Assembly (NCBI GenBank): GCA_035764385.1
Contig: DASTZI010000221.1
Coordinates: 482 to 64,481, forward strand
Direction: 5' to 3'
Origin: Vicinamibacterales bacterium
Lineage (GTDB): Bacteria; Acidobacteriota; Vicinamibacteria; Vicinamibacterales; UBA2999
Length of the DNA stretch: 64,000 bases
The notes beneath the pieces were generated by a model. The model did no database searches. It was not told the DNA's origin and saw nothing but the letters and a program-made list of their open reading frames with translations. The position numbers were made by a program, and so were the translations under genes. Below, piece after piece: positions 19,176 through 58,924 of this stretch (the stretch's first letter is position 1; every line of letters begins with the position of its first letter).

Positions 19176-20276
19176 ATGGAGGAAATAGAAACTGCCGTGA
19201 TTGGAGGCGGCGCCGTCGGTCTTGCGGCGGCGCTCGCCGTGGCGCGCCGGGGCCACACAGTGTGCGTCCTCGAGAAGGAGCCGCGCCCTGGCATGGCCAC
19301 GAGCACGCACAACAGTCAGGTGATCCATGCAGGGATCTACTACCCGGCCGGATCACTCAAAGCGCGACATTGCGTCGAAGGTGCGCGGCGGATGTACGAG
19401 TTCTGCGCCACCTACGGGGTCCCGCATCGGCGCTGTGGAAAGCTCGTAGTGGCTCACGACGAGAGCGAGATCCCGGCGCTCGAGCAGCTGCGGACAACGG
19501 GAGCGGCCAACGGTGTGGACGGTCTCGAAATCATCGATGCGGCCGCGGTGCGGACACGCGAGCCGCACATACGCGCCGCGGCAGCATTGCTTTCGCCGAA
19601 TTCCGGCATTCTCGAAGCGGAGGCACTTGTCCGCACGCTGGCGCGGTTGCTCAACGAACGCGGTGGTTACGTACTACCTGGATCGCCGGTCGTCGCCGGC
19701 CATCTCGACGATGCCGCCATCGAACTGGCCACGCCGGCAGAGCGCATACGAGCGCGATCCGTCGTCAACGCCGCAGGTCTTTACGCCGACGACGTGTCCG
19801 CCGCGCTTGGCGGATCGGCGTTTCGAATCTATCCGTGCCGCGGTGAATACGCGGAACTGGTGCCGTCCAAACGCGGCCTGGTCAATGCACTGGTCTATCC
19901 GCTGCCACACACCCACAGCCTCGGCACACATCTGAGCAAGACCGTTCACGGCAACGTCACGCTTGGTCCGACGGCGCGGTTTCAGGAGCGGAAAGACGAC
20001 TACGAACGCGATCGGCTGCCGCTCGAATCCTTTCTCGAACCGGCGCGACGGCTGCTTCCATCGTTGCAGCTCTCGGACCTGAGGCCCGGCGGGAGCGGCA
20101 TCCGTCCGAAGCTGCATGGACCAGATACGTCGTATGCCGATTTCATGATCGTCAGAGACGACAAATGCCCGCGCCTGGTGCAGGCTGCGGGCATTGAGTC
20201 TCCGGGGTTGACCGCCTGTCTCGCCATCGGCGAGCACGTGGCGGATTTGGTTGACGAGATCCTAGGTCGGTCTTAG
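19176..20276 (+). CDS. FAD-dependent oxidoreductase (DAO / L-2-hydroxyglutarate oxidase-like)
   Basis: [30 protein letters not shown] (FAD dinucleotide fold), [35 protein letters not shown]. Confidence 0.85.
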
Positions 20277-23281: not shown

Positions 23282-25069
23282 TTACTGAATACTCATATGC
23301 AGCCTGCGGACGGGGCACTCGCGCGATGCGCAGACCTGGCGGATGGTGTACTCGATGTTCCCGTTGATCAATGGGCTGCTCAGAATCACTTCATCCACCT
23401 TGTATTTCTGCATCGCCGCTTCGAGCTGATCGAGCGCGCCCCGCACCGGGACACCCATGATCCACCGATGCGTCTTCATCGGGTCGTCATCGATGAAGAC
23501 AACGGGATTCATCAGCCAATCAGGGTTGGCGCGCATTTCCCTGACGATCAGCTGACCGAACGCGCCGGCGCCGTATACGAGCACGCGCCGGCTCCTTTTG
23601 CTGCGCGCCGCCGCGACGAGACTCATGCTGCGGAATGAGACACGCGTCGCGACGATCGCGAGGAGGAGCAACAGCCCGTCGATGATGAAGACAACGCGGG
23701 AGAATCCTTCGAATCGGTAGAAATAGGCGACCGCGAGCACCGACAAGAGCGAGCCGGTGAAGACACCGCGCACGACGACAGCGATGTCGCGCAGGCTGAA
23801 TGTCTGCCACGATCGTTGATACAAGCCCGATCCGTACAACGAGGCAAGCTTGCAGCCGAGCACGACCGGCACCGATGCCGTGAAATACGGAAGAAAGTGA
23901 TTGAGGCCTTCCCCCTCGAAGCGCAGCCGGTAGGCAAAGTAGTAGCACGCCGTGATGAGGATCAGGTCCAGCATCACCTCGCCCGCGTGCCATTTGAACG
24001 TCAGGTCCTTCAGTAACGGAGCGAATGCCGAACGCTCGAGCGCCTTGAAATCCTGGGCGTTGTACGCGGGAACGCGTGCCAGGTAAATGCCGACGAGCGT
24101 CACGAGCACCGCAAAGAGCGCAGCGACCGGACTCATCTGCTCGATGCCACCCGTCACCAATGCCCACGCGGTCAGGCCGCCGACAATGCCCAGCAGGTAA
24201 AGAATGCGGACGGCGCTGCGCTCTGAGAACCCCAGCGAGACCAGACGATGCGACACGTGGTCGGTGCCGCCGCGAGTCGCGCTGCGTCCTGCAAACCGTC
24301 TGAGGACCAGGACGAAGCCGGTATCAAACAGTGGGACGACCAGGATGGCAACGACGAGAATGGATGTCCACGGGAACGGGGTCCGTTCCTGCAGGACCGG
24401 CACAAGTGACGCACCCGCGAGCACCGCGCCGATGAAGAGGCTGCCACAGTCACCCATGAACAAGCGGGCGGGCGGACGGTTCCAGTACAGAAACCCAATC
24501 AGCGCGCCGCACAAGGCGACGAGCAGCAGCACAATTGGAGCCCCGAGAGACGGTCCGAGGAGCCAGGCGAGAAAGGCGGCAGCGACAAACGCAACACCGG
24601 CCGCAAGACCGTCCATGTTGTCGAGCAGGTTGAACGCGTGGCAGACGCCGGCAAACCAGATCGTCGCAACGAGCGTATGCGTGAGCGGCAGCGCGTTGTC
24701 AGGGCGCCTCACCAGCGAGAAGACGAGGAACGCGCCGATGATGAGCGACGACACCAGCTTCGCCAGCGGCGTGAGCTGCAGACGGTCGTCGAGGACGCCG
24801 ACCACGAACATCGCGATACCCGCGAGCGGGATCGCGAGCCATGTGGGCGACATACCCGCTGGGGTCACACGCTGCACAATCAGCGCAAACCCGAGAACGG
24901 TCGCAACCGCGATCGCGACACCACCCATCGTCGGGGTGGGCTCGCTGTGCCATCGATCCGGCCTGGGTGGCACGACGGCACCGATGGCGGGCGCTCCTCG
25001 ACGTACGAGCGCGCACAGCGCCACTGACGCGAGCAGCGAGATCAACAGCGCCAGTGGAAGATGGATCAC
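23282..25069 (-). CDS. Polyprenyl-phosphate HexNAc-1-phosphate transferase (WecA/MraY family) fused to a 4-TM + Rossmann-like (CoA_binding_3 / WbpM-N-terminal-like) module
   Basis: N-terminal half: VGVLDDRLQL, NLLDNMDGLAAG, FMGDCGSLFIG, VPLFDTGFV (WecA/MraY motifs). C-terminal ~250 aa: extra TM helices, then RRVLVYGAGAFGQLIVREMRANPDWLMNPVVFIDDDP...VPVRG...VDEVILS. Confidence 0.85.
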   Translation of the reverse strand: MIHLPLALLISLLASVALCALVRRGAPAIGAVVPPRPDRWHSEPTPTMGGVAIAVATVLGFALIVQRVTPAGMSPTWLAIPLAGIAMFVVGVLDDRLQLTPLAKLVSSLIIGAFLVFSLVRRPDNALPLTHTLVATIWFAGVCHAFNLLDNMDGLAAGVAFVAAAFLAWLLGPSLGAPIVLLLVALCGALIGFLYWNRPPARLFMGDCGSLFIGAVLAGASLVPVLQERTPFPWTSILVVAILVVPLFDTGFVLVLRRFAGRSATRGGTDHVSHRLVSLGFSERSAVRILYLLGIVGGLTAWALVTGGIEQMSPVAALFAVLVTLVGIYLARVPAYNAQDFKALERSAFAPLLKDLTFKWHAGEVMLDLILITACYYFAYRLRFEGEGLNHFLPYFTASVPVVLGCKLASLYGSGLYQRSWQTFSLRDIAVVVRGVFTGSLLSVLAVAYFYRFEGFSRVVFIIDGLLLLLAIVATRVSFRSMSLVAAARSKRSRRVLVYGAGAFGQLIVREMRANPDWLMNPVVFIDDDPMKTHRWIMGVPVRGALDQLEAAMQKYKVDEVILSSPLINGNIEYTIRQVCASRECPVRRLHMSIQ

Positions 25070-25071
25070 TG

Positions 25072-26844
25072 TTACCCGCCGGACACCGGCTGATGGGCGC
25101 GCGCCATACGGTCGCCGACGCCGGATCGCTCTTCGGCCTCGTCCTGCTTCAATCGTACGGGCGCGTCGCGCAGCACAAACGGCGCTTTCGACAGGATGCC
25201 TTCGCAGATCGTGTCGAGTCCGGACGATGCGCCTGGCAGCAGCTGCTGCAGGCGATCCAGTTTGAGACGGTAGACGGGATAGCCAGCCTTCGGCTCGATA
25301 AAGGGCAGCGGAATCATTCGGTTGAAGAAGAAGTGATACGCGTACCGGCGCGCGCGCGCCAGCTGCGTTGCCGGCAGCCGCTCCGGTATCGGGAGCTGCG
25401 CCAGCAACCGGAAGTACTCGTCGGGCGAACTGGCGTCGAGCGTGATCCCCTTATTACGAATCCACGCCTCGCCCGCCACGATCACGGGTAATCCGACGCT
25501 CGTCAGCTCGACGCCCATCTTCGTGCCGTAGATGATGGCCGAATTACACAACGACATCAGCGCGTACGTGCTGAGCCCGCTCTCCGGGGGAACCACAATG
25601 ATGTTGGGCGCGAGTCGAGGCAGCCGTTTGCGCAACTCGGTGAGAATCGGCTGGCGCGACGGCGGAAAGCCGCTGATCTCCGCCGGATGCACGCGAATCA
25701 GCAGCTGCAGGTCCGGCCGCGTAGCGAAGTACTCGCACGTCTGGACGAGCCACTCGAACATGTTCGGAAATGCGTTGGCCGGATAGTGCAGCTGCGCGTC
25801 CCAGGATACGTTGGTCAGCAGCCCGATGACCGGCTTGGATGGGTCGACGCCGATCTGTCTGGCAATCGCAGCAGGATCCTGACTCGTCGGCCGATGGAAG
25901 ACGATCCAGTCGAACATGCCTTCCCGTCGGCTGTCGAGATACTGCAGCAGCTCTCGCTCCTGCGCGGCAGACAGCTCGAGCCGCTCCCAGTGATCCCGCG
26001 GCTCGCTCAGCAACGTATGGTGGTAGGTGTCGTCGTGGCTGAAGATGAAGCGGCGCTTGCGGTATGCCACGTTCCAGTTCGAAACCTGCACGCGCTCCTG
26101 ACGCGCGACCTCCCCCACGATTCCCCACGGCACATAGATCCCGTGGGTGAACACGGCCGATCGAAACCCGATCGCGCGGATCAGGTTGCGTGAGGCGAAG
26201 GCGGTCAGCAGCGCCGACTCCAGATACCTGCGGAGGATTGGTTCCGCCAGCGGCTCGTCGTCGAGCGTTCCGGTGGCAAAGAAACGCAGCGTACCGGCGT
26301 GCGCATGTTCACCGATGTTGAGGCCGTCGTAGACGAAGTGCTCGATTTCACCAACCGGGAGTGTCGAACCGACGCGTGTTGCCTCGGCACGATCGGCCGG
26401 CGTGAGCCATTCGCTCATGCGATGGACCTTGAGGCCGAGCCTGTTGTAGACAGCTTCCGCGGGCCACGTGCAGTCACGGCAGAGATCGCGTGAGGGACCA
26501 TGTTGAACGAAGCGCTGGAGATCCGGGTAGATTGAGGCTTCGCACTCGGCGCACGCGCTCATCGTCCCATCGCACAACAGCGCGTGCACCTCGGCGCCGC
26601 GGAACGTCAACGCCGCCGCCAGCGCACTTTCCAGTGTGACCGCATGCGCGTACGAACCGATCGCGGTCGCCATTAGCACGCGCGGGCCGCCTTCGGCGGA
26701 CGTCCGCGCTGAATTCCAGAGCGCCGGCTCGGCATCAAGCACGCCGCGCCAATCGGGATAGGCCTCGCGCCGGGCGTGGTACCAGCGCCGGGCGAGCCGC
26801 GTCGCTCGCCAGATCGACGGAAAGTTCCGGATGAAATGCTTCAC
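25072..26844 (-). CDS. Capsule-biosynthesis-like GT-B protein (KpsC/KpsS/TagF-type HP motif) with N-terminal Cys cluster; distant relative of Family B
   Basis: LLIRVHPAE ... ALMSLCNSAIIYGTKMGVELTSVGLPVIVAG resembles the HP plus xNSxxGxEA pattern of capsule-synthesis proteins. Cys cluster CDGTMSACAECE...CRDC. The start was chosen at GTG 26844 (GTGA overlap with the HAD stop). Confidence 0.7.
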   Translation of the reverse strand: MKHFIRNFPSIWRATRLARRWYHARREAYPDWRGVLDAEPALWNSARTSAEGGPRVLMATAIGSYAHAVTLESALAAALTFRGAEVHALLCDGTMSACAECEASIYPDLQRFVQHGPSRDLCRDCTWPAEAVYNRLGLKVHRMSEWLTPADRAEATRVGSTLPVGEIEHFVYDGLNIGEHAHAGTLRFFATGTLDDEPLAEPILRRYLESALLTAFASRNLIRAIGFRSAVFTHGIYVPWGIVGEVARQERVQVSNWNVAYRKRRFIFSHDDTYHHTLLSEPRDHWERLELSAAQERELLQYLDSRREGMFDWIVFHRPTSQDPAAIARQIGVDPSKPVIGLLTNVSWDAQLHYPANAFPNMFEWLVQTCEYFATRPDLQLLIRVHPAEISGFPPSRQPILTELRKRLPRLAPNIIVVPPESGLSTYALMSLCNSAIIYGTKMGVELTSVGLPVIVAGEAWIRNKGITLDASSPDEYFRLLAQLPIPERLPATQLARARRYAYHFFFNRMIPLPFIEPKAGYPVYRLKLDRLQQLLPGASSGLDTICEGILSKAPFVLRDAPVRLKQDEAEERSGVGDRMARAHQPVSGG

Positions 26845-27542
26845 GCCGTCGTTTCGGTCACCTTCAACTGACCCAACCCAATGAGATCCAGAAATTCGGC
26901 CGGCGGCGGAAGCTGTTCGAACACCCGCCACGGATGATGGGCGCACAGCTCGTCGACCGAATAACCGCCGCTCGCGACCGCGATAGTACGGGCCCTGATT
27001 GCATCCGCGGCTTCAATGTCGTGCGGCGTGTCGCCAATGACGAAGAGCTGCTCTTCGGTCACGGGACCGTTGCGCCGCGCGAGCTCGAGGGCGCGGGTCG
27101 CGATCGACGCGCGCACGCTCTGATCTTCGGCGAACGCGCCGTCGGGAAAATACTTGAACAGATCGTAATGGGTCAGCTTCGCGCGCGCACCGCGGCGCGT
27201 GTTGCCGGTCAACAGATACGATCGAACGTCGTTCCTCGGGCGAAGCGTCTCGAGAATCTCGCGGACGTTGGGCATCACCTGTCCCTGCTTGAGCGGCAGC
27301 GTCGACGGCAGGAGGTCCTCGTAGCGTGTCACCATCCGTTCGAGCATCCCGTTTTCCGGCTGCAGGCTGAGCAATTCGAACGTCCGCGAGGCAATCTGGA
27401 AGTCCGTCAGGCCGGGCACCCGGATCGAGGACAACTGAAACTCTTTCCCGGTGGTTTCCCGCACTGCTGTTTCCCATGCAGGCACACCAGCCTTGCCGGT
27501 CGTCAGCAGAGTGCCGTCAATGTCCCAGAACAGGATCGTCAT
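26841..27542 (-). CDS. HAD-superfamily phosphatase (phosphoglycolate-phosphatase-like subfamily IA)
   Basis: ILFWDIDGTLL (motif I DxD), LLTGNTR (motif II), GDTPHDIEAA (motif IV). Confidence 0.9.
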   Translation of the reverse strand: MTILFWDIDGTLLTTGKAGVPAWETAVRETTGKEFQLSSIRVPGLTDFQIASRTFELLSLQPENGMLERMVTRYEDLLPSTLPLKQGQVMPNVREILETLRPRNDVRSYLLTGNTRRGARAKLTHYDLFKYFPDGAFAEDQSVRASIATRALELARRNGPVTEEQLFVIGDTPHDIEAADAIRARTIAVASGGYSVDELCAHHPWRVFEQLPPPAEFLDLIGLGQLKVTETTA

Positions 27543-29503
27543 GCGATTTGAGGAATGGAATGCGCGAGTACGCGACGGAATTGCTCGACGAGCCCAGGCA
27601 CGTCGAGACGGTGATAGGCAAGCACCTCATCGTTGGTGCCGCACTCCGGAAGTTGAGTCACGCCGATTCGAGACACGCGCACCGGAGGAGCCAGTCCGAG
27701 CTCCGCAACTGCGGCCGCAACCATCTCGCCCTGCCCCCCATGGACGTAATGGTTGTCGAGCGTGATCACGGTGCGGCTCTCGTCGATCGTCTGCTTCAGC
27801 CATCCTGCGTCAACGCGATTGAGCCATGGCAAATTGACAAGGCGGATACTCGCACCAGTGCTGCGCTGCAGTTCTTCGGCCGCGTGCCACGCGTTCGACA
27901 ACAGCCACGGGCCGTAGCCGAACACGACGGCGTCCGTCCCCGCACGCACGACCCAACCCTTGCCTGGCTGCACCCGGATGTTCGACGGGTAGGCAAATGG
28001 CAACGGCCACTTGACCGATACCAGCCGGAGATACCCGCTCTCGCTCGTCTGATTCACGAGATAGTCGAGGAGCGCGTGCACCTCAGGCTCGGCGGACGGC
28101 TCGGTCAGGAGGAGATTCGGAACGGCGCTCAACGCGCTGATGTCGCGCACCGATTGGTGAGAATGGCCCGGTCCGCCAGGCAGCACACCGGCGAGTGATC
28201 CGACGTAGATCACCTTTGAACCTTCGCTGCACTGGTTGTAAATCTGCTCATTGGGTCGCGTCGACAGGAAACACGCGAACGAGTGTGCAACCGGCAGCGC
28301 ACCACGGCGCGCCATTCCGCCTGCCATCGACACCATGTCCTGTTCGGCGATCCCGCATTCCACAAAACGTTCCGGGTACTTCGCGGCGAACTCCAGAAGG
28401 CCGCAGTCCTTGATCAGATCCGCGTCGAGGACCATCAGATGCGGATGCTTCTCCGCCTGCTGCACGACGGCCTTTCCGTACGCGGCCACGAGATTGTGGG
28501 TCTCGCGCGGTTCGCGACGCGGGTTACGGATGCGGGTTTCGATCGTCAGCTCGCCCAGTCCAAGGCTGGCGAACGCCGTTCGTGCGCTGGCGAGCAACTC
28601 CTCGAGGCCGTCAACGTACTGCCGTTCGGGAGGCGCACCAGAGTGGAACAGATACAAATCGCCGTCGTTCTTGAGCGCGTTCCAGCCTTCCATGAAGGAG
28701 ACGCCGCGCCCTTTTGTCGTGTCCGCGACAATCGCCTTCGGTCGATCCGTGATTGCATCCAGCGAACGGAACGTCCGCTGAAGTGCGGCCAGGTCGTGGC
28801 CGTCGCATCGCGAGACGTGCCAGCCGAACGCTCGAAGCTTGGCTTCGACATCGCCCAGATCGCTGACGTTGCGCACCCAGGTGTCCGATTGGATCTTGTT
28901 GTGGTCCACGATCGCGACAATCTCGCCAAGTCCCAGGTTCGCGGCCGAACCGAGCGATTCCCAGAACTGCCCCTCTTGAAGCTCACCGTCCCCGGTCAGG
29001 ACGAAGATGCGACGTTCGCGATGCGCAAGGCGATTGGCCAGCGCCATCCCCTTCGCCTTGGAGATCCCCATCCCGAGTGAACCGGTATTGGCCTGGATAT
29101 AGGGCGTCTCGACATGCGGATGTCCGGGCAGACCGCCGATGCGTCGGAGTAGATGAAGCTTGTCGGCTGGCAGCAACCCGAGCCCGAGCAGGACGGAATA
29201 GAGCGCTGGAGCATCGTGCCCCTTCGACGAAAAGAAAATGTCGCATGCGTCGGCGCCCTTCTCGAGGTCGCGCAGCTCATTGAGGAACAACCAGCTCATG
29301 ATCTCGAGCGAGCTGAAACTCGTGCCGATGTGTCCGGACCACGCGCCGGCAATCATGTAGAGCGTGTTGATGCGCGCCAGCGCCGCAAACGCGGCGGCCT
29401 TCAACACCGGATCGGCGTTCGTCCTCACGACGCCCGCAAACTCCGACACCGGTACGAAACGAAGCTCTAAGCTGTCGCCTTGGTCTGTCTGTAAATCGCC
29501 CAT
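27539..29503 (-). CDS. Transketolase-family ThDP enzyme (full-length, N+C fused) embedded in the glycan array
   Basis: GHIGTSFSSLEIM, GSLGMGISKAKG, VLTGDGELQEGQFWES (ThDP motif), then a Pyr/C-terminal half with CGIAEQDMVSMAGG. ATGA overlap with the HAD start. Confidence 0.9.
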   Translation of the reverse strand: MGDLQTDQGDSLELRFVPVSEFAGVVRTNADPVLKAAAFAALARINTLYMIAGAWSGHIGTSFSSLEIMSWLFLNELRDLEKGADACDIFFSSKGHDAPALYSVLLGLGLLPADKLHLLRRIGGLPGHPHVETPYIQANTGSLGMGISKAKGMALANRLAHRERRIFVLTGDGELQEGQFWESLGSAANLGLGEIVAIVDHNKIQSDTWVRNVSDLGDVEAKLRAFGWHVSRCDGHDLAALQRTFRSLDAITDRPKAIVADTTKGRGVSFMEGWNALKNDGDLYLFHSGAPPERQYVDGLEELLASARTAFASLGLGELTIETRIRNPRREPRETHNLVAAYGKAVVQQAEKHPHLMVLDADLIKDCGLLEFAAKYPERFVECGIAEQDMVSMAGGMARRGALPVAHSFACFLSTRPNEQIYNQCSEGSKVIYVGSLAGVLPGGPGHSHQSVRDISALSAVPNLLLTEPSAEPEVHALLDYLVNQTSESGYLRLVSVKWPLPFAYPSNIRVQPGKGWVVRAGTDAVVFGYGPWLLSNAWHAAEELQRSTGASIRLVNLPWLNRVDAGWLKQTIDESRTVITLDNHYVHGGQGEMVAAAVAELGLAPPVRVSRIGVTQLPECGTNDEVLAYHRLDVPGLVEQFRRVLAHSIPQIA

Positions 29504-29512
29504 TGAGTTATC

Positions 29513-29564
29513 GAATCCCGAATTCCCCTCGACTGCGCTCGGGGCAAGCCGAATACTGAATTCC
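29513..29564. repeat. Two pairs of GAAT-heptads (gaatccc gaattcc ... gaatact gaattcc) in the largest intercistronic gap
   Basis: Read directly: 29513-29526 and 29551-29564, separated by 24 nt. The gaatccc unit is the same as in the 15057-15084 array. Confidence 0.7.
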
Positions 29565-29565
29565 G

Positions 29566-30324
29566 TTACGCACGCACAGCGCCGTACGGTTCTTGTACAA
29601 CAGGCGGCAAGCTCACGGCGCCTTCCGCGAGCAGGCGCTCCGCGATCATCCAGTCGTGCGGATCGTTGATGTCGAACCCTTCGTACTTTTCCGTTATGAA
29701 CGGCATCAACACGTCACCTGCGATCGTTCGCTTCTCCAGTACGACGCGCGCCCACGCGAGCTCGAGCGAGGCATTCTGCACGTACACACGAGGCAAGGCC
29801 TGGTACGGCGTGCTGTGCCACGGCTGCGTGCGTGGCTCCGGCTGATCGAGCAGCGGCCGCATCCGGCTGCCCTCGATGACCCACATCTTGCCGGGGTGCT
29901 GTGCGCATAACTCCACCGCGCGCAGCGAATCAACTCCCGCTTCGGGCCCGAACAACTGCCATGCGCGACGAATCGTATCGGCCGTACGGAAGGGACTTGT
30001 CGGCCGCAGAAGCGAAAATGCGTCCCACTGCCGTCCGCGCCGGCCGAGCTCGCGCAGCGTATAGTCCACCCATTCGATATCAGGCGACGTGTCTGTCGCA
30101 AACGCGGCTGGCCGCAGAAACGGCACTTCGGCGCCGTAGTGTCGCGCGATGGCCGCCGTCTCTTCCGAATCGGTCGACACGATCACCGCGTCGAACACGC
30201 CACTCTGAATGGCCGGCGCAATCGTGTAGGCCAGCATCGGATGGCCGTTCAGCAGACGAATGTTCTTGCCAGGGACGCGCTTGGAACCTTGGCGAGCGGG
30301 AATCAGTGCAACGGCGGAAGGCAT
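29566..30324 (-). CDS. CMP-nonulosonic/ulosonic acid synthetase (acylneuraminate cytidylyltransferase family), paralogue 1
   Basis: VALIPARQGSKRVPGKNIRLLNGHPMLAYTI, LLRPTSPFR and YVQNASLE fit the CTP_transf_3 pattern. Confidence 0.9.
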   Translation of the reverse strand: MPSAVALIPARQGSKRVPGKNIRLLNGHPMLAYTIAPAIQSGVFDAVIVSTDSEETAAIARHYGAEVPFLRPAAFATDTSPDIEWVDYTLRELGRRGRQWDAFSLLRPTSPFRTADTIRRAWQLFGPEAGVDSLRAVELCAQHPGKMWVIEGSRMRPLLDQPEPRTQPWHSTPYQALPRVYVQNASLELAWARVVLEKRTIAGDVLMPFITEKYEGFDINDPHDWMIAERLLAEGAVSLPPVVQEPYGAVRA

Positions 30325-30354
30325 TCACATTCGGACGCGCCGCAAAAGCGCGCC

Positions 30355-31863
30355 CTACACCTGATTGGGATTGTGATTGATGTAAACCGTCTTCAAATCG
30401 GAGTAGACGTCCAACGCTTGCGTGCCGGCTTCACGCCACCCATTGCCTGACTGACGGAGGCCCCCAAATGGCATATGTGGCTCGCTGCCGTAGGTGCCGC
30501 CGTTGACCACGGCCACGCCGGCCTGAATGCGGCCGATGAAGGTCATCGCCCTGTGAATATTCTGCGTATGAATCGCCGCGGTAAGCCCGAACGGTGAATC
30601 ATTCGCCAACGCAATGGCTTCCTCGAAATCCCGAACGCGGTACAGACACGTAATGGGGCCGAAGAGCTCGCTGCGGGTGATCTCGTCATTCGGTCCGACG
30701 TGCTCGACGATGGTCGGCGAGACGAAATATCCATCGCCGTACGGAGATCCAGTCAACCGCGCGCCCCCCGTGAGGACGACTGCGCCCGTATCCTTCGCGC
30801 GCGCAACGGCTGCAAGCATGTTGCGCATCTGCTCTTCGTTGATGACCGGGCCGTAATCGTCCGTATCCGCCGTGCCGACCTTGAGCTTCCGCGTCGCCTC
30901 GACCAGCATCGTTTTGAACCGGTCGTAAACGCTGTCGAACACGATGATGCGGCTGCCGGCGGCGCAGCGCTGACCCGCATTGCTGAACGCGGACCCGAGC
31001 GTCCACGTCACCGCGTTGGCTAAATCCGCATCGTCACAGACGATCAACGGATTCTTGCCGCCGAGTTCGAGACAGACTTTTGCCAGCCTCCGCCCGGCGG
31101 TTTCGGCAATCCAACGGCCGACTTCGCACGAACCGGTGAAACTGACAATCGCCACGTCAGGATGCTCGACGAGCGGCGCACCCGCCTCTTCGCCGAACCC
31201 GTGCAGCGTCGTATAGACGCCGTCAGGCACTCCCGCTTCGCGCGCCAGCACGCCAAACGCCCAGGCGGAGAGCGGCGTATCTTCCGCCGCCTTGAGGATC
31301 GCTGCGTTGCCGCACAGCAGCGCGGGAAATGCCTTCCAGGCCACGTTGGCAATGGGCGTATTCGCGGCGATGATGAGCCCGGCCACACCGAGCGGCTGTC
31401 GTACGACCATCGCCGACTTGTTCGGCACCGCGCTGGTCGTCGTCTGGCCATAGAACCGGCGTCCCTCGCCGGCGACGAAGAAGCCCATCTCGATGGCGGC
31501 ATCGGTTTCGCCAAGCGCGTCTTTTCTGGACTTGCCCGTCTCCATCGCAACGAGCCTCGCGATCTCGTCGCGATGCTGGCGCATCAACAGCGCGATCTGC
31601 CTGAGGATGTCGCCGCGTCGAACGACGGTCATCGCTGCCCACGCGGGCTGCGCAGCTTTCGCTGTCTTCACCGCCAGATCGACATCGTCACGTGTGGATC
31701 GCGCAACTTCGCAAAGCGGTTGGCCCGTCGCCGGGTTCATCTTCGTGAATGACCGGCCAACATCGGCCGTCATGTCCACGTGACCGATCTGGTTCGGGAT
31801 TCGCGCTGGTATGACCGAGAGATCGCTGGCCGCCGGTGTCGTCGCTGAAAGATTCGCGTTCAT
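30355..31863 (-). CDS. NAD(P)-dependent aldehyde dehydrogenase
   Basis: Start at MNANLSATT (ATG 31863). Motifs FTGSCEVGRWI, the catalytic-Glu region CLELGGKNPLIV, and the Cys region NAGQRCAAGSRI. Confidence 0.9.
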   Translation of the reverse strand: MNANLSATTPAASDLSVIPARIPNQIGHVDMTADVGRSFTKMNPATGQPLCEVARSTRDDVDLAVKTAKAAQPAWAAMTVVRRGDILRQIALLMRQHRDEIARLVAMETGKSRKDALGETDAAIEMGFFVAGEGRRFYGQTTTSAVPNKSAMVVRQPLGVAGLIIAANTPIANVAWKAFPALLCGNAAILKAAEDTPLSAWAFGVLAREAGVPDGVYTTLHGFGEEAGAPLVEHPDVAIVSFTGSCEVGRWIAETAGRRLAKVCLELGGKNPLIVCDDADLANAVTWTLGSAFSNAGQRCAAGSRIIVFDSVYDRFKTMLVEATRKLKVGTADTDDYGPVINEEQMRNMLAAVARAKDTGAVVLTGGARLTGSPYGDGYFVSPTIVEHVGPNDEITRSELFGPITCLYRVRDFEEAIALANDSPFGLTAAIHTQNIHRAMTFIGRIQAGVAVVNGGTYGSEPHMPFGGLRQSGNGWREAGTQALDVYSDLKTVYINHNPNQV

Positions 31864-31873
31864 TGGCACGTCG

Positions 31874-32728
31874 TTACCAGGCTGTGAATCCGCCGTCGAC
31901 GCGCAGTTCGTGGCCGGTGACGTAGGAGGATGCCGACGAAGCGAGGAAGACGAGTGGACCCGTGAGGTCCTCAGGCTGCGCCATCCGACCAAGCGGCACG
32001 CGTGATCCGTATTTCTCCTTGAACGCCTCGTCCTGTCCACCAGCGACGCCACCCGGCGACAGCGTGTTGACGCGAACGCCGCGAGCGCCCCACAGCGTCG
32101 AAAAATACTTCGTCATGTTGACGACAGCCGCTTTCGACGCACCGTACGCAGGCGACTTCAAAAACGGGAGGTCGCCGGGCAGGTGATCGTAGAAGCGCTG
32201 ATCGGGCGACACGGATGCGTACAGCGATCCAATGTTGATGACCGAACCGCTGCCACGCTCAGCCATCTGAGAGCCGAACACCTGCGTCACCTGGAACGTC
32301 CCCATCAGGTTTACTTCAAGCATCCGGTGGAACTGGTCCATCGGCAGGTTTTCGATCCGTGACCGGGTACCCGCTGAATCCGGCGGTTGATCGACGCCCG
32401 CATTATTCACAAGGATGCTGACGGGACCCATGCGTTCGGCAACCACTGACGCGGCATTCACGATTGATTGCCGATTGGTGACGTCGCAGTCGAACCGTTG
32501 AACCTGGCCAGGCGTGCGCTCCTCGACTTTGCGGAATGCAGGAGAGGCGGAAGCGCCTGGCAGCTCGAGAGCCGCCACCTGCGCCCCCGCATCGATGAGC
32601 GCCTCGATCCAGATCGGCCCCAGTTTGCCGCACGCGCCGGTAACGACTGCGATCTGGCCGTCGAGACGAAACCGATCCCTGTGGGGTCCGCCTTCAGGCG
32701 GACCTGACGAGCGGGACGAGTCTGTCAC
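31874..32728 (-). CDS. Short-chain dehydrogenase/reductase (classical SDR)
   Basis: VVTGACGKLGPIW (TGxxxGxG-like), NNAG, and catalytic YGASKAAV. GTG start with a GTGA overlap. Confidence 0.9.
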   Translation of the reverse strand: MTDSSRSSGPPEGGPHRDRFRLDGQIAVVTGACGKLGPIWIEALIDAGAQVAALELPGASASPAFRKVEERTPGQVQRFDCDVTNRQSIVNAASVVAERMGPVSILVNNAGVDQPPDSAGTRSRIENLPMDQFHRMLEVNLMGTFQVTQVFGSQMAERGSGSVINIGSLYASVSPDQRFYDHLPGDLPFLKSPAYGASKAAVVNMTKYFSTLWGARGVRVNTLSPGGVAGGQDEAFKEKYGSRVPLGRMAQPEDLTGPLVFLASSASSYVTGHELRVDGGFTAW

Positions 32729-33789
32729 GAACGCGCGAACTCGACGTCCGGCTTGCTGAGCACCTCGAAGGTGAGGAAGTCGTCTTCCATCAGCGCCCGG
32801 AGCGTCACGCGACCGAGGACCTTGTCCAGCTCGTATGGCGGGATGCCGCCGCCAGGCGACTTCATGACGATGTCTCCAGGCCCGAGGATGTGTCCACTCG
32901 GCACATCGCGAGCGAGGACGAGGCTCTTGCCCATCTTGGTAATGGGCGCTTTTTCGCTGTCGTAGATCTTCTTGAAGCCGTTGCCGAGCGCCTTGTGCGT
33001 GCGCTCGAGGTCGCGAACCATCTTGCGCAAGCCAACAGGCTCCAGCGAGAACGCGTGATCGGTGCCCTTGCTGGCGCGGTTCAGGGTGAAGTGCTTCTCC
33101 ACGATTCGCGCGCCGAGCATGTAGGCCGCCACGGGCATGGCGATCCCGTTGTCATGGCTCGAAAAGCCGATGACGGCGCCGGGGAACCGCTCGCGGAAGG
33201 TGCTGATGACGCGCAGGTCGAGCTCCTCGAACGCCGCCGGATATCCCGCCGTGCACTGCAGAATGGCGAGCTGCGGGTTGATCGGCATGATCGTGTCGTA
33301 GGCGCGCTGCACGTCGTCGATGACCGCGCCGCCGGTGGAAATGACGACAGGTTTACCGAAGCTCGCGACGTGCCGCAACAGCGGCGTGCTTTTGAGATCG
33401 CCCGAGGCAATCTTGTACGCGGGGACGTCGAGATCACGCAGGAAGTCGGCGCTGGCCAGGTCGAATGCGGTGGAGAAGAAATCGACGCCGAGTTCCGCCG
33501 CGAACGTCTGCAGCTGACGGTACTCCTGCAGGCCGAACTCGAGGAATTCGCGGTGCTCACCGTAGGTTGAACCGAAGCTGTTCTCGTTGTCGTACGGCTT
33601 GTTGTAGGCAGCGCGAGTGTACAGCCCCCGGTTGTCGCGCTTCTGCAGCTTGACCGCGTGCGCGCCGGCGAGTTTCGCTTCGCGGAATAGCTCGCGCGCC
33701 TTATCGAGGTTGCCCTGGTGGTTGTGTCCGATTTCAGCGATGACATAGCACCTGGACTCGTCGCCGATCTCGTGCCGCCCGATTCTCAT
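32725..33789 (-). CDS. NeuB-family ulosonic-acid synthase, sugar-phosphate (animal NANS / Bacteroides Kdn-9-P synthase-like) type, with C-terminal SAF domain
   Basis: Start at MRIGRHEIG (ATG 33789). VIAEIGHNHQGNLDKARELFREAKLAGAHAVKLQK, FGSTYGEHREFLEF, LQCTAGYP, GFSSHDNGIAMPVAA and KGTDHAFSLEP parallel, from memory, human NANS (IIAEIGQNHQGDLDVAK..., WGKTYGEHKRHLEF, LQCTSAYP, GYSGHETGIAISVAA, KGSDHSASLEP). Confidence 0.85.
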   Translation of the reverse strand: MRIGRHEIGDESRCYVIAEIGHNHQGNLDKARELFREAKLAGAHAVKLQKRDNRGLYTRAAYNKPYDNENSFGSTYGEHREFLEFGLQEYRQLQTFAAELGVDFFSTAFDLASADFLRDLDVPAYKIASGDLKSTPLLRHVASFGKPVVISTGGAVIDDVQRAYDTIMPINPQLAILQCTAGYPAAFEELDLRVISTFRERFPGAVIGFSSHDNGIAMPVAAYMLGARIVEKHFTLNRASKGTDHAFSLEPVGLRKMVRDLERTHKALGNGFKKIYDSEKAPITKMGKSLVLARDVPSGHILGPGDIVMKSPGGGIPPYELDKVLGRVTLRALMEDDFLTFEVLSKPDVEFARS

Positions 33790-33811: not shown

Positions 33812-34807
33812 CTAGGCTTCAACGACCGGCCGCAGCTGCGCGACCAGCTGATCCCACCCGTAGTCGGCGTGCGCGATCTCCCGCGCGGCGCGACCAATCT
33901 TCTCTGCCTCGTCGTGGTCCGGAAGACGATCGCAGCGATTGATGTCGATGATGTTCTTCGCGTGCACGAGCCCCTGCGGCGAGTGCTGGTCAAGGTTGGT
34001 GATCACCGCGCAGCCGACTTCCATCGCCGCGTTCACCGTCGTGTTGTTCGCGCGCAGCCCTTTTTCGAAGAACGCCGCCAGGAATGTGCAGTCGACCAGA
34101 TGATTGAAGACTGCTGTGTCGGACAGATAGCCCATGAAGTACACGCGGCCGTTGAAGATGGACTGCAGCTCCTCGAAGCGGACGACAAAGGAATCGTCGA
34201 AACTGGTGTTCTCGTGCAGCGCCGTCGAGACGAACACTGAATACGTCTTGCCCGTCGCCTCGAGCAACTCGAGAAGCCTCCGGTAGAGCGGAACCCTGAT
34301 CTTGTGCGCCATCCCGAAGGTGAAGACCTTGATCTCCGTATCGTCGAATCGCTGGGGGTTCAGCAGGGTGCCCGGGCAGAACGCCTCGACAATATCGGGA
34401 CGCGCCGCCCGCAGCTGCTCGAACAGCTCACGATTGCCGCACGAGACGCGGGCAGCGGCAGCAAGCATCCGCTTCTCGAGTGCGGTGTTGTCGAATGCGT
34501 GCAGAAACAGTTCGAATTCGCCGACGTGCCGCTCGATCCAGGTGTCGAGCGCGAGGGCATCTTCGGCGGAAAATTCCGACATCTTCAGCGACAGCAGCGG
34601 CCGGCCGTAACGCGCCAGCTCCGGTGCGCCGATCCGGACAACTGGCAGGTCGAGCCGCCGCGCCAGGATCGCATTGAACTTGGCGATGCCGCACGTCCAC
34701 GGGTTCAGGTGATAACCGGCTATACAGTCGATCAAACGGACCTCAGGTGCTTCGAACTGTTTTGAGTGTGCGGGGAGTGCGCAGCCCAGCCGTTCGGACC
34801 CGCGCAA
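33812..34807 (-). CDS. Hypothetical protein, possible GT-B-type glycosyltransferase
   Basis: 331-aa ORF in the operon frame. The only hint of function is a GT1-like C-terminal pattern (VYFMGYLSD...FLAAFFEKGLRANNTTVNAAMEVGCAVITN). No firm family assignment. Confidence 0.6.
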   Translation of the reverse strand: MRGSERLGCALPAHSKQFEAPEVRLIDCIAGYHLNPWTCGIAKFNAILARRLDLPVVRIGAPELARYGRPLLSLKMSEFSAEDALALDTWIERHVGEFELFLHAFDNTALEKRMLAAAARVSCGNRELFEQLRAARPDIVEAFCPGTLLNPQRFDDTEIKVFTFGMAHKIRVPLYRRLLELLEATGKTYSVFVSTALHENTSFDDSFVVRFEELQSIFNGRVYFMGYLSDTAVFNHLVDCTFLAAFFEKGLRANNTTVNAAMEVGCAVITNLDQHSPQGLVHAKNIIDINRCDRLPDHDEAEKIGRAAREIAHADYGWDQLVAQLRPVVEA

Positions 34808-34816: not shown

Positions 34817-35749
34817 CTACTGCAGCTTGGCGGCTTCCCGCTGTCCCGCCATCGCCTCGATCAGATAGGGCGGACGTCGCCGCGTTTCCTCCAGCGCGCG
34901 CCACACGTACTCGCCGACGATTCCGAGGGCGACCAACTGGAACCCGGCGAGGCCGACAATCAACGACAGAACGAGCAGCAGACCTCCACCGAGCTCCGGC
35001 AACAGCGCGACGGCGAACAACAACAACACGAGGGACCCGACCAAGAACATCAACCCGATATAGGTGCAGAGCCGGATTGGAAAGCCCGAGAACGACGTCA
35101 TCGAATCGACGACAAGCTTGATTTTGCGCGCGAGCGTCCATCCGGATTGTCCTGACCGCCGCGGCTGTTTGTCGTACTCGACGCACTCCTGGCGGAAACC
35201 GAGCCACGTGATCAACGCAAGCACGCTGACGTTCCGCTCGGAAAAGCGCCGGAACGCATCGACCACCACGCGATCGACGAGAAAGAAGTCGGCGCCGCGA
35301 GCCGGCATCTCGGTCATTCCGACCAGGCGTCGCATCATCCAGTAATACAGCGCGGCGAATCCCCGGTGCGACGGATCACCGGGCCGGGCCCGCCGCGTTG
35401 CCCACACAACCTGCGCACCCTGACGCCACCGCGCGACCATCGAGGCGAGCGTCTCGGGGGGATCCTGCAGGTCGGCCGCCATCATCACGGCGGCGTCCGA
35501 GTCGACCTGATGAAGGCCGCACGTAATCGCGACGTGCGACCCCGAATTCCGCGAGAGTCGGAAGCCGCGTACACGCGCGTCGCGAAGCGCCAGGGCTTCG
35601 ATCACCGCGAACGTCTCGTCGCGCGAATGGTCGTCGACCACGATCCATTCCCAGTCGCTACCGACATCGCGCATCGCGGCCACGAGACGCTCGTAGAGCA
35701 CCGGCAGGTTAGTGGCTTCGTTGAACGCCGGCGTCACGATGGAGATCAT
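34817..35749 (-). CDS. GT2 polyprenyl-phosphate glycosyltransferase (ArnC/GtrB/DPM1-like) with two C-terminal TM helices
   Basis: ISIVTPAFNEATNLPVLYERL, IVVDDHSRDET, MMAADLQDPPE, then the C-terminal hydrophobic pair (LCTYIGLMFLVGSLVLLLFAVALL / LLLVLSLIVGLAGFQLVALGIVG). Confidence 0.9.
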   Translation of the reverse strand: MISIVTPAFNEATNLPVLYERLVAAMRDVGSDWEWIVVDDHSRDETFAVIEALALRDARVRGFRLSRNSGSHVAITCGLHQVDSDAAVMMAADLQDPPETLASMVARWRQGAQVVWATRRARPGDPSHRGFAALYYWMMRRLVGMTEMPARGADFFLVDRVVVDAFRRFSERNVSVLALITWLGFRQECVEYDKQPRRSGQSGWTLARKIKLVVDSMTSFSGFPIRLCTYIGLMFLVGSLVLLLFAVALLPELGGGLLLVLSLIVGLAGFQLVALGIVGEYVWRALEETRRRPPYLIEAMAGQREAAKLQ

Positions 35750-35753
35750 TCGT

Positions 35754-35781
35754 GATTTCGGATTTGTGATTTGTGATCTAG
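35754..35781. repeat. Heptad repeat gatttcg gatttgt gatttgt gatctag in an intercistronic gap
   Basis: Read directly. It includes the TAG stop (35778-35780) of the aminotransferase and ends 5 nt upstream (minus sense) of the ArnC-like start at 35749. Confidence 0.8.
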
Positions 35782-36953: not shown

Positions 36954-36956
36954 CGC

Positions 36957-36991
36957 CACTAATCACCACCCACTAACCACTAACCACTAAC
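36957..36991. repeat. Heptad repeat cactaat caccacc cactaac cactaac cactaac in an intercistronic gap
   Basis: Read directly (3 perfect copies at 36971-36991). It contains the TAG stop (36987-36989) of the upstream epimerase gene. Confidence 0.85.
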
Positions 36992-39217: not shown

Positions 39218-39234
39218 AGGGCCGTCGGTCGCCT

Positions 39235-48155: not shown

Positions 48156-48168
48156 GTGACTGCCGCCA

Positions 48169-51640: not shown

Positions 51641-51641
51641 C

Positions 51642-58923: not shown

Positions 58924-58924
58924 G

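What the first reader, a model, noticed from the sequence alone, without database searches (positions are those of the whole stretch)
26841..33789. Non-canonical ulosonic-acid module: animal-type NeuB + HAD phosphatase + transketolase + aldehyde dehydrogenase + SDR + cytidylyltransferase
The NeuB at 32725-33789 tracks my recollection of human NANS block by block (IAEIGxNHQGxLD, YGEHxxxLEF, LQCTxxYP, GxSxHxxGIAxxVAA, KGxDHxxSLEP). That clade condenses PEP with a sugar 6-phosphate, and the product is then dephosphorylated. This is established for animal Neu5Ac-9-P and for Bacteroides Kdn-9-P. A HAD phosphatase (26841-27542) and a cytidylyltransferase (29566-30324) are present in the same coupled block, but no NeuC or aminotransferase. 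Instead, a full-length transketolase, an aldehyde dehydrogenase and an SDR are interleaved, with stop-start overlaps at 27539 and 32725. This combination suggests that an unusual sugar-phosphate precursor is built by two-carbon transfer or oxidation before condensation. That would make it a possible new ulosonic-acid pathway. I am not aware of a transketolase in a NulO locus.
Basis: inference. Interest (0 to 1): 0.7.

Follow-up and report, generated by a model that had tools for sequence, protein, structure and literature searches.

The report
Sialic-acid-like pathway with odd transketolase
A six-gene block, whose five-gene core recurs in the same order in bacteria of about a dozen phyla, couples an animal-type sialic acid synthase to a transketolase-like enzyme that has lost its sugar-phosphate binding site. 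It probably makes a new, shortened acidic sugar for the cell surface.

Summary
Six tightly packed minus-strand genes encode NeuB+SAF, an SDR, an aldehyde dehydrogenase, a CMP-transferase, a three-domain transketolase-like protein and a HAD-IA hydrolase.

- **NeuB.** It is 40% identical to human NANS (277 bits). Bacterial NeuB/SpsE structures and the window's own second NeuB give only about 140-160 bits.
- **Transketolase-like protein.** It is not a housekeeping enzyme. Its subfamily keeps the ThDP-binding and catalytic histidines but has replaced every sugar-phosphate-binding residue.
- **Conservation.** NeuB-SDR-ALDH-CMP-transferase-TK-like, usually with a KdsC-like phosphatase after NeuB, is conserved in order in about 12 phyla. 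Nineteen of 35 usable TK-like loci hold all four partners, against 0 of 34 canonical transketolase loci.
- **Interpretation.** The idea that the transketolase builds a sugar-phosphate precursor is not.

My best explanation is inferred, not shown. After dephosphorylation the SDR makes a ketol in the side chain, the TK-like enzyme removes two carbons to leave a C7 aldehyde, and ALDH oxidises it to a heptulosaric (Dha-like) acid that is then CMP-activated. In two loci ALDH is replaced by a semialdehyde-type aminotransferase, which supports an aldehyde intermediate. I found no published description.

The parts
32725..33789 (-). NANS-type (animal-type) ulosonic acid synthase, NeuB + SAF domains. 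Proposed to condense PEP with a hexose 6-phosphate.
   Evidence: Pfam NeuB 254.7 bits and SAF. 40% identity and 277 bits to human NANS. Groups with NANS in the NJ tree and shares its motif. Below the NeuB and PseI equivalog cut-offs, as is human NANS itself.
31874..32728 (-). Short-chain dehydrogenase. Proposed to oxidise a side-chain CHOH (C8) of the dephosphorylated ulosonic acid to a ketol.
   Evidence: adh_short_C2 151.8 bits. The closest solved relatives are gluconate 5-dehydrogenase and galactitol, sorbitol, mannitol and polyol dehydrogenases. Conserved next to NeuB in 24 of 35 loci. The role is inferred.
30355..31863 (-). NAD(P)-dependent aldehyde dehydrogenase. Proposed to oxidise the C7 aldehyde to a carboxylate.
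   Evidence: Aldedh 515.8 bits. The best NCBIfam matches are alpha-ketoglutaric semialdehyde and 2,5-dioxovalerate dehydrogenases, both below cut-off. Replaced by a class-III semialdehyde-type aminotransferase in L010 and L030. Start ATG at 31863.
29566..30324 (-). CMP-ulosonic acid synthetase (cytidylyltransferase).
   Evidence: CTP_transf_3 74 bits. PseF model 135 bits, below the 205.7 cut-off. Conserved directly upstream of the TK-like gene in 25 of 35 loci.
27539..29503 (-). Transketolase-like ThDP enzyme of a distinct subfamily. Proposed to cleave C-C in the keto side chain and remove a C2 unit.
   Evidence: Three TK domains. Closest structure is human TKT, 206 bits. It keeps H37, H77, H110, D155, N185, H258 and E366. 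It has no Arg at R318 (alignment gap), and S345 is D, H416 is L, D424 is P and R474 is S, as in the great majority of the subfamily members aligned. Below the transketolase equivalog cut-off, 393 vs 488 bits.
26841..27542 (-). HAD-IA hydrolase, translationally coupled to the TK-like gene. Proposed ulosonate-9-phosphate phosphatase that replaces the KdsC-like enzyme of other lineages.
   Evidence: HAD_2, Hydrolase and HAD Pfam hits. Homologues occur only in Vicinamibacterales loci L001-L003. No KdsC-like gene is found in the window, whereas 15 other loci have one. The role is inferred.
25072..26844 (-). Soluble protein with no family match and a GT-B-like fold. Candidate transferase for the CMP-activated sugar.
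   Evidence: No Pfam or NCBIfam match. Homologues follow the TK-like gene in L001, L003, L008, L017, L023 and L039 and lie a few kb downstream in L005 and L026. AF2 model pLDDT 64.8. Foldseek hits are weak and all GT-B (NeuC, MurG, GtfA, KpsC), TM 0.2-0.35. Low confidence.
33812..34807 (-). Conserved protein of unknown family directly upstream of NeuB. Role unknown; a glycosyltransferase is only a guess.
   Evidence: No Pfam or NCBIfam match. Homologues occur at the same position in L001 and L003 and in TK-like loci L013, L015, L036 and L072 at 38-44% identity.

Best explanation
The block encodes a pathway for a tailored ulosonic acid. It has a Kdn/NANS-type front end and a three-enzyme cassette that shortens the sugar's side chain.

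1. The NANS-like NeuB condenses PEP with a hexose 6-phosphate. Mannose-6-P is the most likely substrate, because the module has no NeuC or kinase. The product is a nonulosonate 9-phosphate.
2. A phosphatase frees the C9 hydroxyl. This is the HAD-IA enzyme here and a KdsC-like enzyme in most other lineages.
3. The SDR oxidises a secondary alcohol of the glycerol side chain, probably C8. This creates a HOCH2-CO-CH(OH)- ketol with the D-threo configuration that transketolase donors have.
4. The TK-like ThDP enzyme cleaves the C7-C8 bond. The C2 unit leaves as glycolaldehyde or is passed to an acceptor, and a C7 aldehyde remains.
5. ALDH oxidises the aldehyde to a carboxylate. The product is a 3-deoxy-hept-2-ulosaric acid, a stereoisomer of Dha (C7H10O8).
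6. The cytidylyltransferase makes the CMP-sugar, and an adjacent GT-B-like protein adds it to a polysaccharide assembled by the downstream WecA-like and GT genes.

Shown: the gene content, the NANS affinity, the loss of the phosphate site, and the conservation and variation of the module. Inferred: every chemical step, the order of CMP activation relative to tailoring, and the identity of the hexose phosphate.
For: - Domains and tight coupling.
- NANS affinity.
- A KdsC/Kdn-9-P-phosphatase-like gene lies in 15 loci, in most of them next to NeuB.
- The TK-like subfamily keeps the cofactor-binding and catalytic residues, including the histidines that hold the donor's C1 hydroxyl. It has replaced all phosphate-binding residues and the Asp that reads the C4 hydroxyl. 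In a pyranose ulosonic acid the equivalent oxygen is the ring oxygen.
- The SDR's closest solved relatives all oxidise the penultimate CHOH next to a terminal CH2OH in sugar acids or polyols.
- ALDH's best named relatives act on omega-aldehydes of 2-keto acids.
- Among the genome loci, those of Polyangiaceae (L010) and Bacteroidota (L030) have a glutamate-1-semialdehyde-aminomutase-like class-III aminotransferase in place of ALDH. This fits a terminal aldehyde intermediate.
- Co-occurrence: of 35 TK-like loci, 28 have NeuB, 24 SDR, 24 ALDH, 25 the CMP-transferase and 19 all four. None of 34 canonical TK loci has any.
- Stereochemistry, from established carbohydrate nomenclature: read from C9, C7-OH and O6 of a D-glycero-D-galacto nonulosonate have the (3S,4R) arrangement of fructose and xylulose.
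- Heptulosaric acid (Dha) is reported in Rhizobiaceae LPS, a 1991 paper seen only as a reference title in PMC5713287. No pathway is known even in plants (PMC12168206).
Against: - No enzyme was assayed and no product is known from any organism carrying the module.
- The closest-relative arguments for the SDR and ALDH are weak. All matches are far below the equivalog cut-offs, and both families are promiscuous.
- The fate of the C2 unit and the acceptor are unknown.
- Some loci lack ALDH (L018, L080) or the SDR (L028, L035). Some TK-like genes have no NeuB nearby (L027, L029, L032, L038, L063). The trio is therefore not obligatory.
- The window's HAD-IA resembles phosphoglycolate phosphatases, so its substrate is uncertain.
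- The Kdn-derived product would be the L-arabino isomer, not Dha itself.
Confidence: 0.4

Rival explanations
1. The SDR and ALDH oxidise the terminal C9 alcohol through an aldehyde to a 9-carboxylate (a nonulosaric acid). In the aminotransferase variants the product is a 9-amino sugar, as in Shewanella Kdo8N. The TK-like enzyme does something separate, for example adding or supplying a C2 or other substituent.
For: The ALDH/aminotransferase swap fits any terminal aldehyde. The Kdo8N pathway is a precedent for oxidise-then-transaminate at the terminal carbon (my own knowledge). Loci without the SDR or ALDH exist.
Against: It leaves the best-conserved and most unusual gene, the TK-like one, without a role. 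The SDR's nearest relatives oxidise secondary alcohols, not primary ones. No acyl- or alkyl-transfer partner is conserved with the module.
Confidence: 0.15
2. The transketolase-like enzyme, with the SDR and ALDH, builds an unusual aldose phosphate by two-carbon transfer or oxidation. NeuB then condenses it with PEP.
For: The NeuB is NANS-like and so probably takes a sugar phosphate. No NeuC or kinase lies in the module.
Against: All four phosphate-binding residues and D424 are replaced across the subfamily. Transketolase makes ketoses, not the aldoses that NeuB needs. Mannose-6-P is available without extra enzymes. An aldehyde-consuming ALDH or aminotransferase upstream of NeuB would destroy the aldose.
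Confidence: 0.1
3. The TK-like enzyme is a donor-side enzyme. It makes a C2 (glycolyl or dihydroxyethyl) or C2-branch substituent that is attached to the ulosonic acid. The SDR and ALDH process that substituent, for example glycolaldehyde to glycolate.
For: ThDP enzymes of this fold generate dihydroxyethyl-ThDP. N-glycolyl and branched sugars exist in bacteria (my own knowledge). ALDH could detoxify or process glycolaldehyde.
Against: No conserved acyltransferase, CoA ligase, carrier protein or amino-sugar step accompanies the core module. A canonical ketose-phosphate donor site is absent.
Confidence: 0.1
4. The transketolase-like gene is the organism's ordinary transketolase and lies here by chance. 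The module is then a plain Kdn pathway plus unrelated oxidoreductases.
For: Three TK domains. The best NCBIfam hit is called 'transketolase'. Identity among relatives is very high at 74-96%.
Against: Below the equivalog cut-off (393 vs 488 bits). The substrate site is rebuilt. The same gene order recurs in about 12 phyla, whereas 0 of 34 canonical TK loci have these neighbours. The gene is translationally coupled to the HAD gene.
Confidence: 0.02

Closest known systems
Bacteroides thetaiotaomicron Kdn pathway (BT1714 Kdn-9-P synthase, BT1713 Kdn-9-P phosphatase, BT1712 CMP-Kdn synthetase) and the animal NANS/NANP/CMAS pathway
   Same: A NANS-type synthase, a dedicated phosphatase and a CMP-transferase, with no NeuC. 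In most related loci the phosphatase is KdsC/Kdn-9-P-phosphatase-like.
   Different: Three extra conserved enzymes are interleaved: the SDR, ALDH and the TK-like enzyme. In the window the phosphatase is a HAD-IA enzyme, not the KdsC type.
Canonical transketolase (human TKT; split bacterial TK)
   Same: The three-domain fold, the ThDP/Mg2+ motif, the catalytic histidines and the cofactor-activating Glu.
   Different: The sugar-phosphate binding residues R318, S345, H416 and R474, and also D424, are all replaced by a different pattern that the great majority of the subfamily shares. The gene lies in glycan loci rather than in central metabolism.
Shewanella Kdo8N pathway (KdnB oxidase and KdnA aminotransferase acting on Kdo); recalled from the literature, not checked here
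   Same: Post-condensation tailoring of an ulosonic acid through a terminal aldehyde. The aminotransferase variants L010 and L030 would follow the same logic.
   Different: No C-C cleavage and no ThDP enzyme is involved. The enzyme families differ (metal-dependent alcohol dehydrogenase and a different aminotransferase class).
Dha, 3-deoxy-D-lyxo-hept-2-ulosaric acid, of plant RG-II, prasinophyte thecae and Rhizobiaceae LPS
   Same: The same class of product as proposed here: a C7 2-keto-3-deoxy diacid, C7H10O8. Its biosynthesis is unknown.
   Different: A Kdn-derived product would be the L-arabino isomer. No link between this module and Dha-containing organisms was tested.
Classical bacterial NeuC-NeuB-NeuA sialic or legionaminic acid loci
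   Same: A NeuB-family synthase and a CMP-transferase in a surface-glycan locus. Such a set is also present in the window at 47-53 kb.
   Different: The module's NeuB is only 31% identical to that second NeuB. The module lacks NeuC and has a phosphatase instead.

Membership tests
NANS / Kdn-9-P-synthase-type NeuB (sugar-6-phosphate-using) | NeuB catalytic domain plus C-terminal SAF/AFP-like domain | tested here: met
   Pfam NeuB 254.7 bits and SAF 37.6 bits.
NANS / Kdn-9-P-synthase-type NeuB (sugar-6-phosphate-using) | Closer to animal NANS than to ManNAc-using bacterial NeuB | tested here: met
   277 bits and 40% identity to human NANS. 139-159 bits to solved bacterial enzymes and 145 bits to the window's second NeuB. 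Supported by the NJ tree and the shared TYGEHR..LEF motif.
NANS / Kdn-9-P-synthase-type NeuB (sugar-6-phosphate-using) | Dedicated product phosphatase encoded with the synthase | tested here: met
   A KdsC/Kdn-9-P-phosphatase-like gene in 15 related loci. A HAD-IA gene in the window and in L001-L003.
NANS / Kdn-9-P-synthase-type NeuB (sugar-6-phosphate-using) | Uses a 6-phosphorylated hexose as substrate | not testable with these tools
   Needs an enzyme assay.
NANS / Kdn-9-P-synthase-type NeuB (sugar-6-phosphate-using) | Groups with BT1714 in a phylogeny | not tested
   The BT1714 sequence could not be obtained with the available collections.
Transketolase (EC 2.2.1.1) | Three-domain architecture with the ThDP/metal motif and catalytic histidines | tested here: met
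   H37, H77, H110, D155, N185, H258 and E366 are conserved.
Transketolase (EC 2.2.1.1) | Phosphate-binding Arg/Ser/His/Arg (human R318, S345, H416, R474) and the Asp that reads the substrate hydroxyl (D424) | tested here: not met
   The R318 column is a gap. S345 is D, H416 is L, D424 is P and R474 is S in the window protein and in the great majority of the subfamily. Canonical short TKs in the same alignment keep all five.
Transketolase (EC 2.2.1.1) | Reaches the curated equivalog score | tested here: not met
   NF004559: 393 bits against a cut-off of 488. TIGR00232: 133 against 682.
CMP-ulosonic acid synthetase (NeuA/PseF/KdsB family) | CTP_transf_3 fold and a family-specific score | tested here: inconclusive
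   Pfam 74 bits, over residues 5-73 only. The PseF model gives 135 bits against a cut-off of 205.7.
KdsC-type (HAD-IIIA) ulosonate-phosphate phosphatase | Small capless HAD-IIIA enzyme of the YrbI/KdsC family | tested here: not met
   The window's HAD (233 aa) matches HAD-IA and phosphoglycolate-phosphatase-like models only. No KdsC-like sequence is found in the window. The KdsC-like gene is present in other lineages.
Classical NeuC-NeuB-NeuA sialic acid locus | Hydrolysing UDP-GlcNAc 2-epimerase (NeuC) encoded with the synthase | tested here: not met
   None in 25-34.8 kb. NeuC belongs to the separate set at 50483-51640.

The most novel reading that the evidence does not exclude
The SDR, TK-like enzyme and ALDH (or aminotransferase) form a previously unrecognised enzymatic 'periodate-like' cassette. 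It cuts two carbons off nonulosonic acids and yields CMP-activated C7 ulosaric acids, or 7-amino-heptulosonic acids in the aminotransferase variants. This would be the first biosynthetic route to the Dha class of sugars and a new reaction type for the transketolase fold. The cassette is present in soil, freshwater and marine bacteria of about a dozen phyla.
Probability: 0.35. Interest if true: 0.85.

Novelty: new variant of a known kind. Interest (0 to 1): 0.72.

Why it matters
Ulosonic acids such as sialic, legionaminic and pseudaminic acids, Kdn and Kdo are major determinants of microbial surfaces. Their known pathways contain no ThDP-dependent C-C chemistry.

This points to a widespread surface sugar that has not been characterised. 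It also gives a concrete, testable candidate route to heptulosaric acids, whose biosynthesis is still listed as unknown (PMC12168206). Finally, it defines a transketolase subfamily with a rebuilt substrate site, which may be useful as a biocatalyst for non-phosphorylated keto-sugar acids.

Tried and rejected
- **Exact look-up of the window NeuB.** Nothing on record.
- **Literature.** Searches for transketolase with nonulosonic or sialic acid synthase, and for Acidobacteria with nonulosonic acid, found no description. Searches on heptulosaric and ulosaric acids found plant and algal Dha papers and one reference-list citation of Dha in Rhizobiaceae LPS, but no pathway.
- **Solved-structure searches for the SDR and ALDH.** They gave only generic relatives. 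I use them as weak hints.
- **The 590-aa protein at 25072-26844.** The AF2 model was mediocre (pLDDT 64.8). Foldseek supports only 'GT-B-like', and I did not pursue the family assignment.
- **Housekeeping transketolase.** Rejected on active-site and context evidence.
- **2-keto-acid decarboxylase acting on the ulosonic acid head group.** Considered for the TK-like enzyme and rejected, because that would destroy the C1-C2 unit the CMP-transferase needs.
- **Upstream LegB-like/DegT/ArnC-like genes.** I considered whether they feed the module. They are absent from that position in L003 and in other phyla, so I treat them as a separate module.
- **ORF calling in high-GC loci.** It produced antisense shadow ORFs (clusters c9 and c13). 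I ignored these and relied on tblastn.
- **First MAFFT run.** It timed out and was repeated with faster settings.

Full report
**What is in the sequence**

The window has about 63% G+C. From about 38.2 kb down to 20.3 kb it carries one long run of minus-strand genes. Apart from a 62-nt gap before the TK-like gene, the gaps are 30 nt or less, and several stop and start codons overlap.

- HAD-IA hydrolase, 26841-27542.
- Three-domain transketolase-like protein, 27539-29503.
- CTP_transf_3 cytidylyltransferase, 29566-30324.
- Aldehyde dehydrogenase, 30355 to about 31863.
- Classical SDR, 31874-32728.
- NeuB+SAF synthase, 32725-33789.

The 4-nt overlaps at 27539 and 32725 are real.

Flanking genes:
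- Upstream lie a protein of unknown family (33812-34807), an ArnC/PgfS-like GT2, a DegT aminotransferase and a LegB-like dehydratase.
- Downstream lie a soluble 590-aa protein without any family match (25072-26844), a WecA-like GT4 fused to a CoA_binding_3 domain, a GT1, two GT2s and the dTDP-rhamnose genes rmlD and rmlB.

The closest homologues that carry an organism name are from Vicinamibacterales (Acidobacteriota) metagenome-assembled genomes.

**The NeuB is animal-type**

I recalled the human NANS sequence and verified it as exact (NP_061819.2). Against it the window NeuB shows 40% identity over 338 residues, a single one-residue gap and 277 bits. By comparison:
- The best solved bacterial enzymes (SpsE, N. 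meningitidis NeuB, PseI) give 139-159 bits.
- The window's own second NeuB at 51642-52679 gives 31% identity and 145 bits.

In a neighbour-joining tree the NeuBs that sit in this kind of module form one clade. Human NANS is the next branch. N. meningitidis NeuB (sequence verified against 1xuu) lies outside. The segment S[FWY]G-x-TYGEHR-x2-LEF is shared by NANS and the module NeuBs and is absent from the meningococcal enzyme.

Both the window NeuB and human NANS fall below NCBI's NeuB and PseI equivalog cut-offs by similar margins. BT1714 could not be included.

**The transketolase-like protein is not a transketolase in the ordinary sense**

Its closest solved relative is human TKT at 206 bits and about 29% identity. 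It does not reach any transketolase equivalog cut-off.

I searched 1.8 billion representative proteins and obtained the 150 best cluster representatives. I aligned them with human TKT. A large subfamily that includes the window protein behaves as follows:
- It keeps the cofactor-binding and catalytic residues (human numbering H37, H77, H110, D155, N185, H258, E366).
- It has no Arg at R318, where the column is a gap.
- It has D for S345, L (or Y) for H416, P for D424 and S (or another non-basic residue) for R474.

The canonical short transketolases in the same alignment keep R, S, H, D and R. The replaced residues are exactly those that hold the substrate's phosphate and read its C4 hydroxyl. 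This assignment rests on established transketolase structural work, recalled from memory.

None of the subfamily loci whose motif region could be extracted has the GEDG motif. Two sub-clades carry GSLAG..PGGPGHSHQ or CHYAGLIPAGPGKSHQ instead. Only one TK-like gene is present in the window.

**The module is conserved far beyond this lineage**

Two Vicinamibacterales contigs, with 88% and 74% TK identity, have the same order:
unknown - NeuB - SDR - ALDH - CMP-transferase - TK-like - HAD - unknown - WecA-like - GT1 - GT2 - GT2.

In the more distant of the two (L003) the LegB/DegT/GT2 trio is not adjacent, so that trio is a separate module.

I then scanned one genome per species with an alignment of distant subfamily members. 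This returned 80 loci. tblastn with the window proteins and ORF clustering show NeuB-SDR-ALDH-CMP-transferase-TK-like, mostly in that order, in:
- Chromatiales and Methylobacter
- Melainabacteria and Chloroflexaceae
- several Actinomycetota
- Verrucomicrobiota and Phycisphaerales
- Deltaproteobacteria and a gammaproteobacterium
- Anaerolineae
- a Bdellovibrio-like bacterium
- Elusimicrobia
- Roseospira
- SAR202 and Dehalococcoidales

Counts among the 35 subfamily loci with at least 6 kb of upstream flank:

| Partner within 9 kb | Loci |
|---|---|
| NeuB | 28 |
| SDR | 24 |
| ALDH | 24 |
| CMP-transferase | 25 |
| all four | 19 |

None of the 34 canonical-transketolase loci returned by the same scan has any of these neighbours.

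**The phosphatase**

In 15 of the related loci a gene of about 177 aa lies in the locus, and in most of them it sits next to NeuB. It matches KdsC (118 bits) and the Bacteroides Kdn-9-P phosphatase model (96 bits).

The window and its close relatives have no such gene. They are the only loci with the HAD-IA gene, which is coupled to the TK-like gene. I read this as non-orthologous replacement.

**Informative variants**

- L010 (Polyangiaceae) and L030 (Bacteroidota) keep the SDR, the KdsC-like phosphatase, NeuB and the TK-like gene. L030 also has a CMP-transferase. Both have no ALDH. Instead they carry a class-III aminotransferase whose best matches are glutamate-1-semialdehyde aminomutase and other semialdehyde or omega-amine transaminases.
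- L019 (Cyanobacteriota) couples SDR-TK-ALDH-CMP-transferase to a NeuC-type epimerase.
- L018 and L080 lack ALDH, and L028 and L035 lack the SDR.
- Ignavibacteria and Gaiellales TK-like genes have unrelated or uncharacterised neighbours.
- One representative (P0137) is fused to an FkbM methyltransferase, and methyltransferases are common neighbours.

**Mechanism (inferred)**

Any model must explain six facts: the front end is NANS-like; a phosphatase is needed; the ThDP enzyme has a donor-type catalytic apparatus but no phosphate site; an SDR is conserved; an aldehyde-consuming enzyme is conserved and can be either an ALDH or a transaminase; and the product is CMP-activated, so the 2-keto-3-deoxy acid head group must survive.

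The simplest scheme is side-chain truncation:
1. The SDR oxidises C8-OH of the dephosphorylated nonulosonate. Its closest solved relatives, gluconate 5-dehydrogenase and polyol 2-dehydrogenases, do just this kind of penultimate-carbon oxidation.
2. This creates HOCH2-CO-CH(OH)-. For a D-glycero-D-galacto sugar read from C9, this has the (3S,4R) configuration of natural transketolase donors (my derivation from Fischer projections).
3. The TK-like enzyme cleaves C7-C8. The position that corresponds to the donor's C4-OH is the pyranose ring oxygen, and the far end is a carboxylated ring rather than a phosphate. This would rationalise the loss of D424 and of the phosphate site.
4. The resulting C7 aldehyde is oxidised by ALDH to a 3-deoxy-hept-2-ulosaric acid, or transaminated in the L010/L030 variants.
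5. A ketone at C7 instead of C8 would give the same two products.

Calculated masses for a Kdn-based route are 268, 266, 206 plus glycolaldehyde (60), and 222 Da.

I put the probability of this scheme at about 0.4. The broader statement, that this is an undescribed and widely conserved ulosonic acid tailoring pathway built around a non-canonical transketolase-fold enzyme, I hold at about 0.85.

**Comparison with known systems and novelty**

The front end equals the Bacteroides Kdn and animal Neu5Ac logic. The tailoring resembles Kdo8N formation only in passing through a terminal aldehyde.

I found no paper linking a transketolase-like enzyme to ulosonic acid biosynthesis. The Dha pathway is listed as unknown in a 2025 review. 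Dha is reported in Rhizobiaceae LPS, according to a 1991 paper that I saw only as a reference title in PMC5713287.

I therefore class the module as a new variant of a known kind of system, with a plausible but unproven new enzyme reaction.

**Limits**

- There are no assays and no known product.
- No complete genome was examined for a second tkt.
- The NeuB tree is a simple NJ tree without BT1714.
- The GT-B assignment of the 590-aa protein is weak.
- The roles of the SDR and ALDH rest on distant similarity.

Noticed in passing
window 47014-52679 (-): A second, canonical ulosonic acid gene set lies 14 kb upstream on the same strand. It comprises NeuC (50483-51640; TIGR03568 365 bits, above cut-off), a second NeuB (51642-52679; only 31% identical to the NANS-like one) and a second CTP_transf_3 cytidylyltransferase (47014-47802), with methyltransferases and unknown genes between them. 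The organism probably makes two different ulosonic acids.
   Followed up: partly
window 34817-38195 (-): A LegB-like 4,6-dehydratase (36987-38195), a PseC/ArnB-like DegT aminotransferase (35778-36959) and an ArnC/PgfS-like GT2 (34817-35749) look like a module for a polyprenyl-phosphate-linked amino sugar. They are not adjacent to the NeuB module in the 74%-identity relative L003.
   Followed up: partly
L010:5064-6896 and L030:11994-13328: In two loci from different phyla the ALDH of the module is replaced by a glutamate-1-semialdehyde-aminomutase-like class-III aminotransferase. L010 also has a fatty-acid-hydroxylase-family gene (9220-10008) between NeuB and the TK-like gene.
   Followed up: partly
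window 33812-34807 and 37991-39568 (-): Two proteins have no Pfam or NCBIfam match (331 aa and an ORF of up to 525 aa). Their homologues (34-44% identity) recur together in TK-like loci of Actinomycetota and Verrucomicrobiota (both in L013, L015, L036 and L072; only the larger one in L012). They may be further parts of the same glycan system.
   Followed up: no
protein P0137 (900 aa, representative hit): A TK-like subfamily member is fused at its C-terminus to an FkbM-type methyltransferase. FkbM and class-I methyltransferases also lie next to the TK-like gene in L036 and L072, which hints at O-methylation of the product.
   Followed up: no
L027, L029, L032 (Ignavibacteria/Melioribacteraceae); L038, L063 (Gaiellales): TK-like subfamily genes (41-45% identity, same rebuilt active site) occur with no NeuB, SDR, ALDH or CMP-transferase within 10 kb. 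In the Ignavibacteria loci the annotated neighbours include a histidine kinase, a transposase, an MFS transporter and a vWA protein. The L038 neighbours scanned have no Pfam match. The subfamily may have a second role, or the partners may lie elsewhere.
   Followed up: partly
window 52676-60739 (-): A run of large ORFs (382, 885, 641 and 604 aa) has no Pfam match at E<=1e-5. It lies directly upstream of the second NeuB.
   Followed up: no
window 23282-25069 (-): The WecA/WbpL-like GT4 phosphosugar transferase is fused to a C-terminal CoA_binding_3 domain and has about 9-11 predicted membrane helices. It is the likely initiating transferase of the glycan that receives the new sugar.
   Followed up: no
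window 19176-20276 (+): A lone plus-strand FAD-dependent DAO-family oxidoreductase sits between the GT2 genes and rmlD. It is conserved at the same place in L001 and L003.
   Followed up: no
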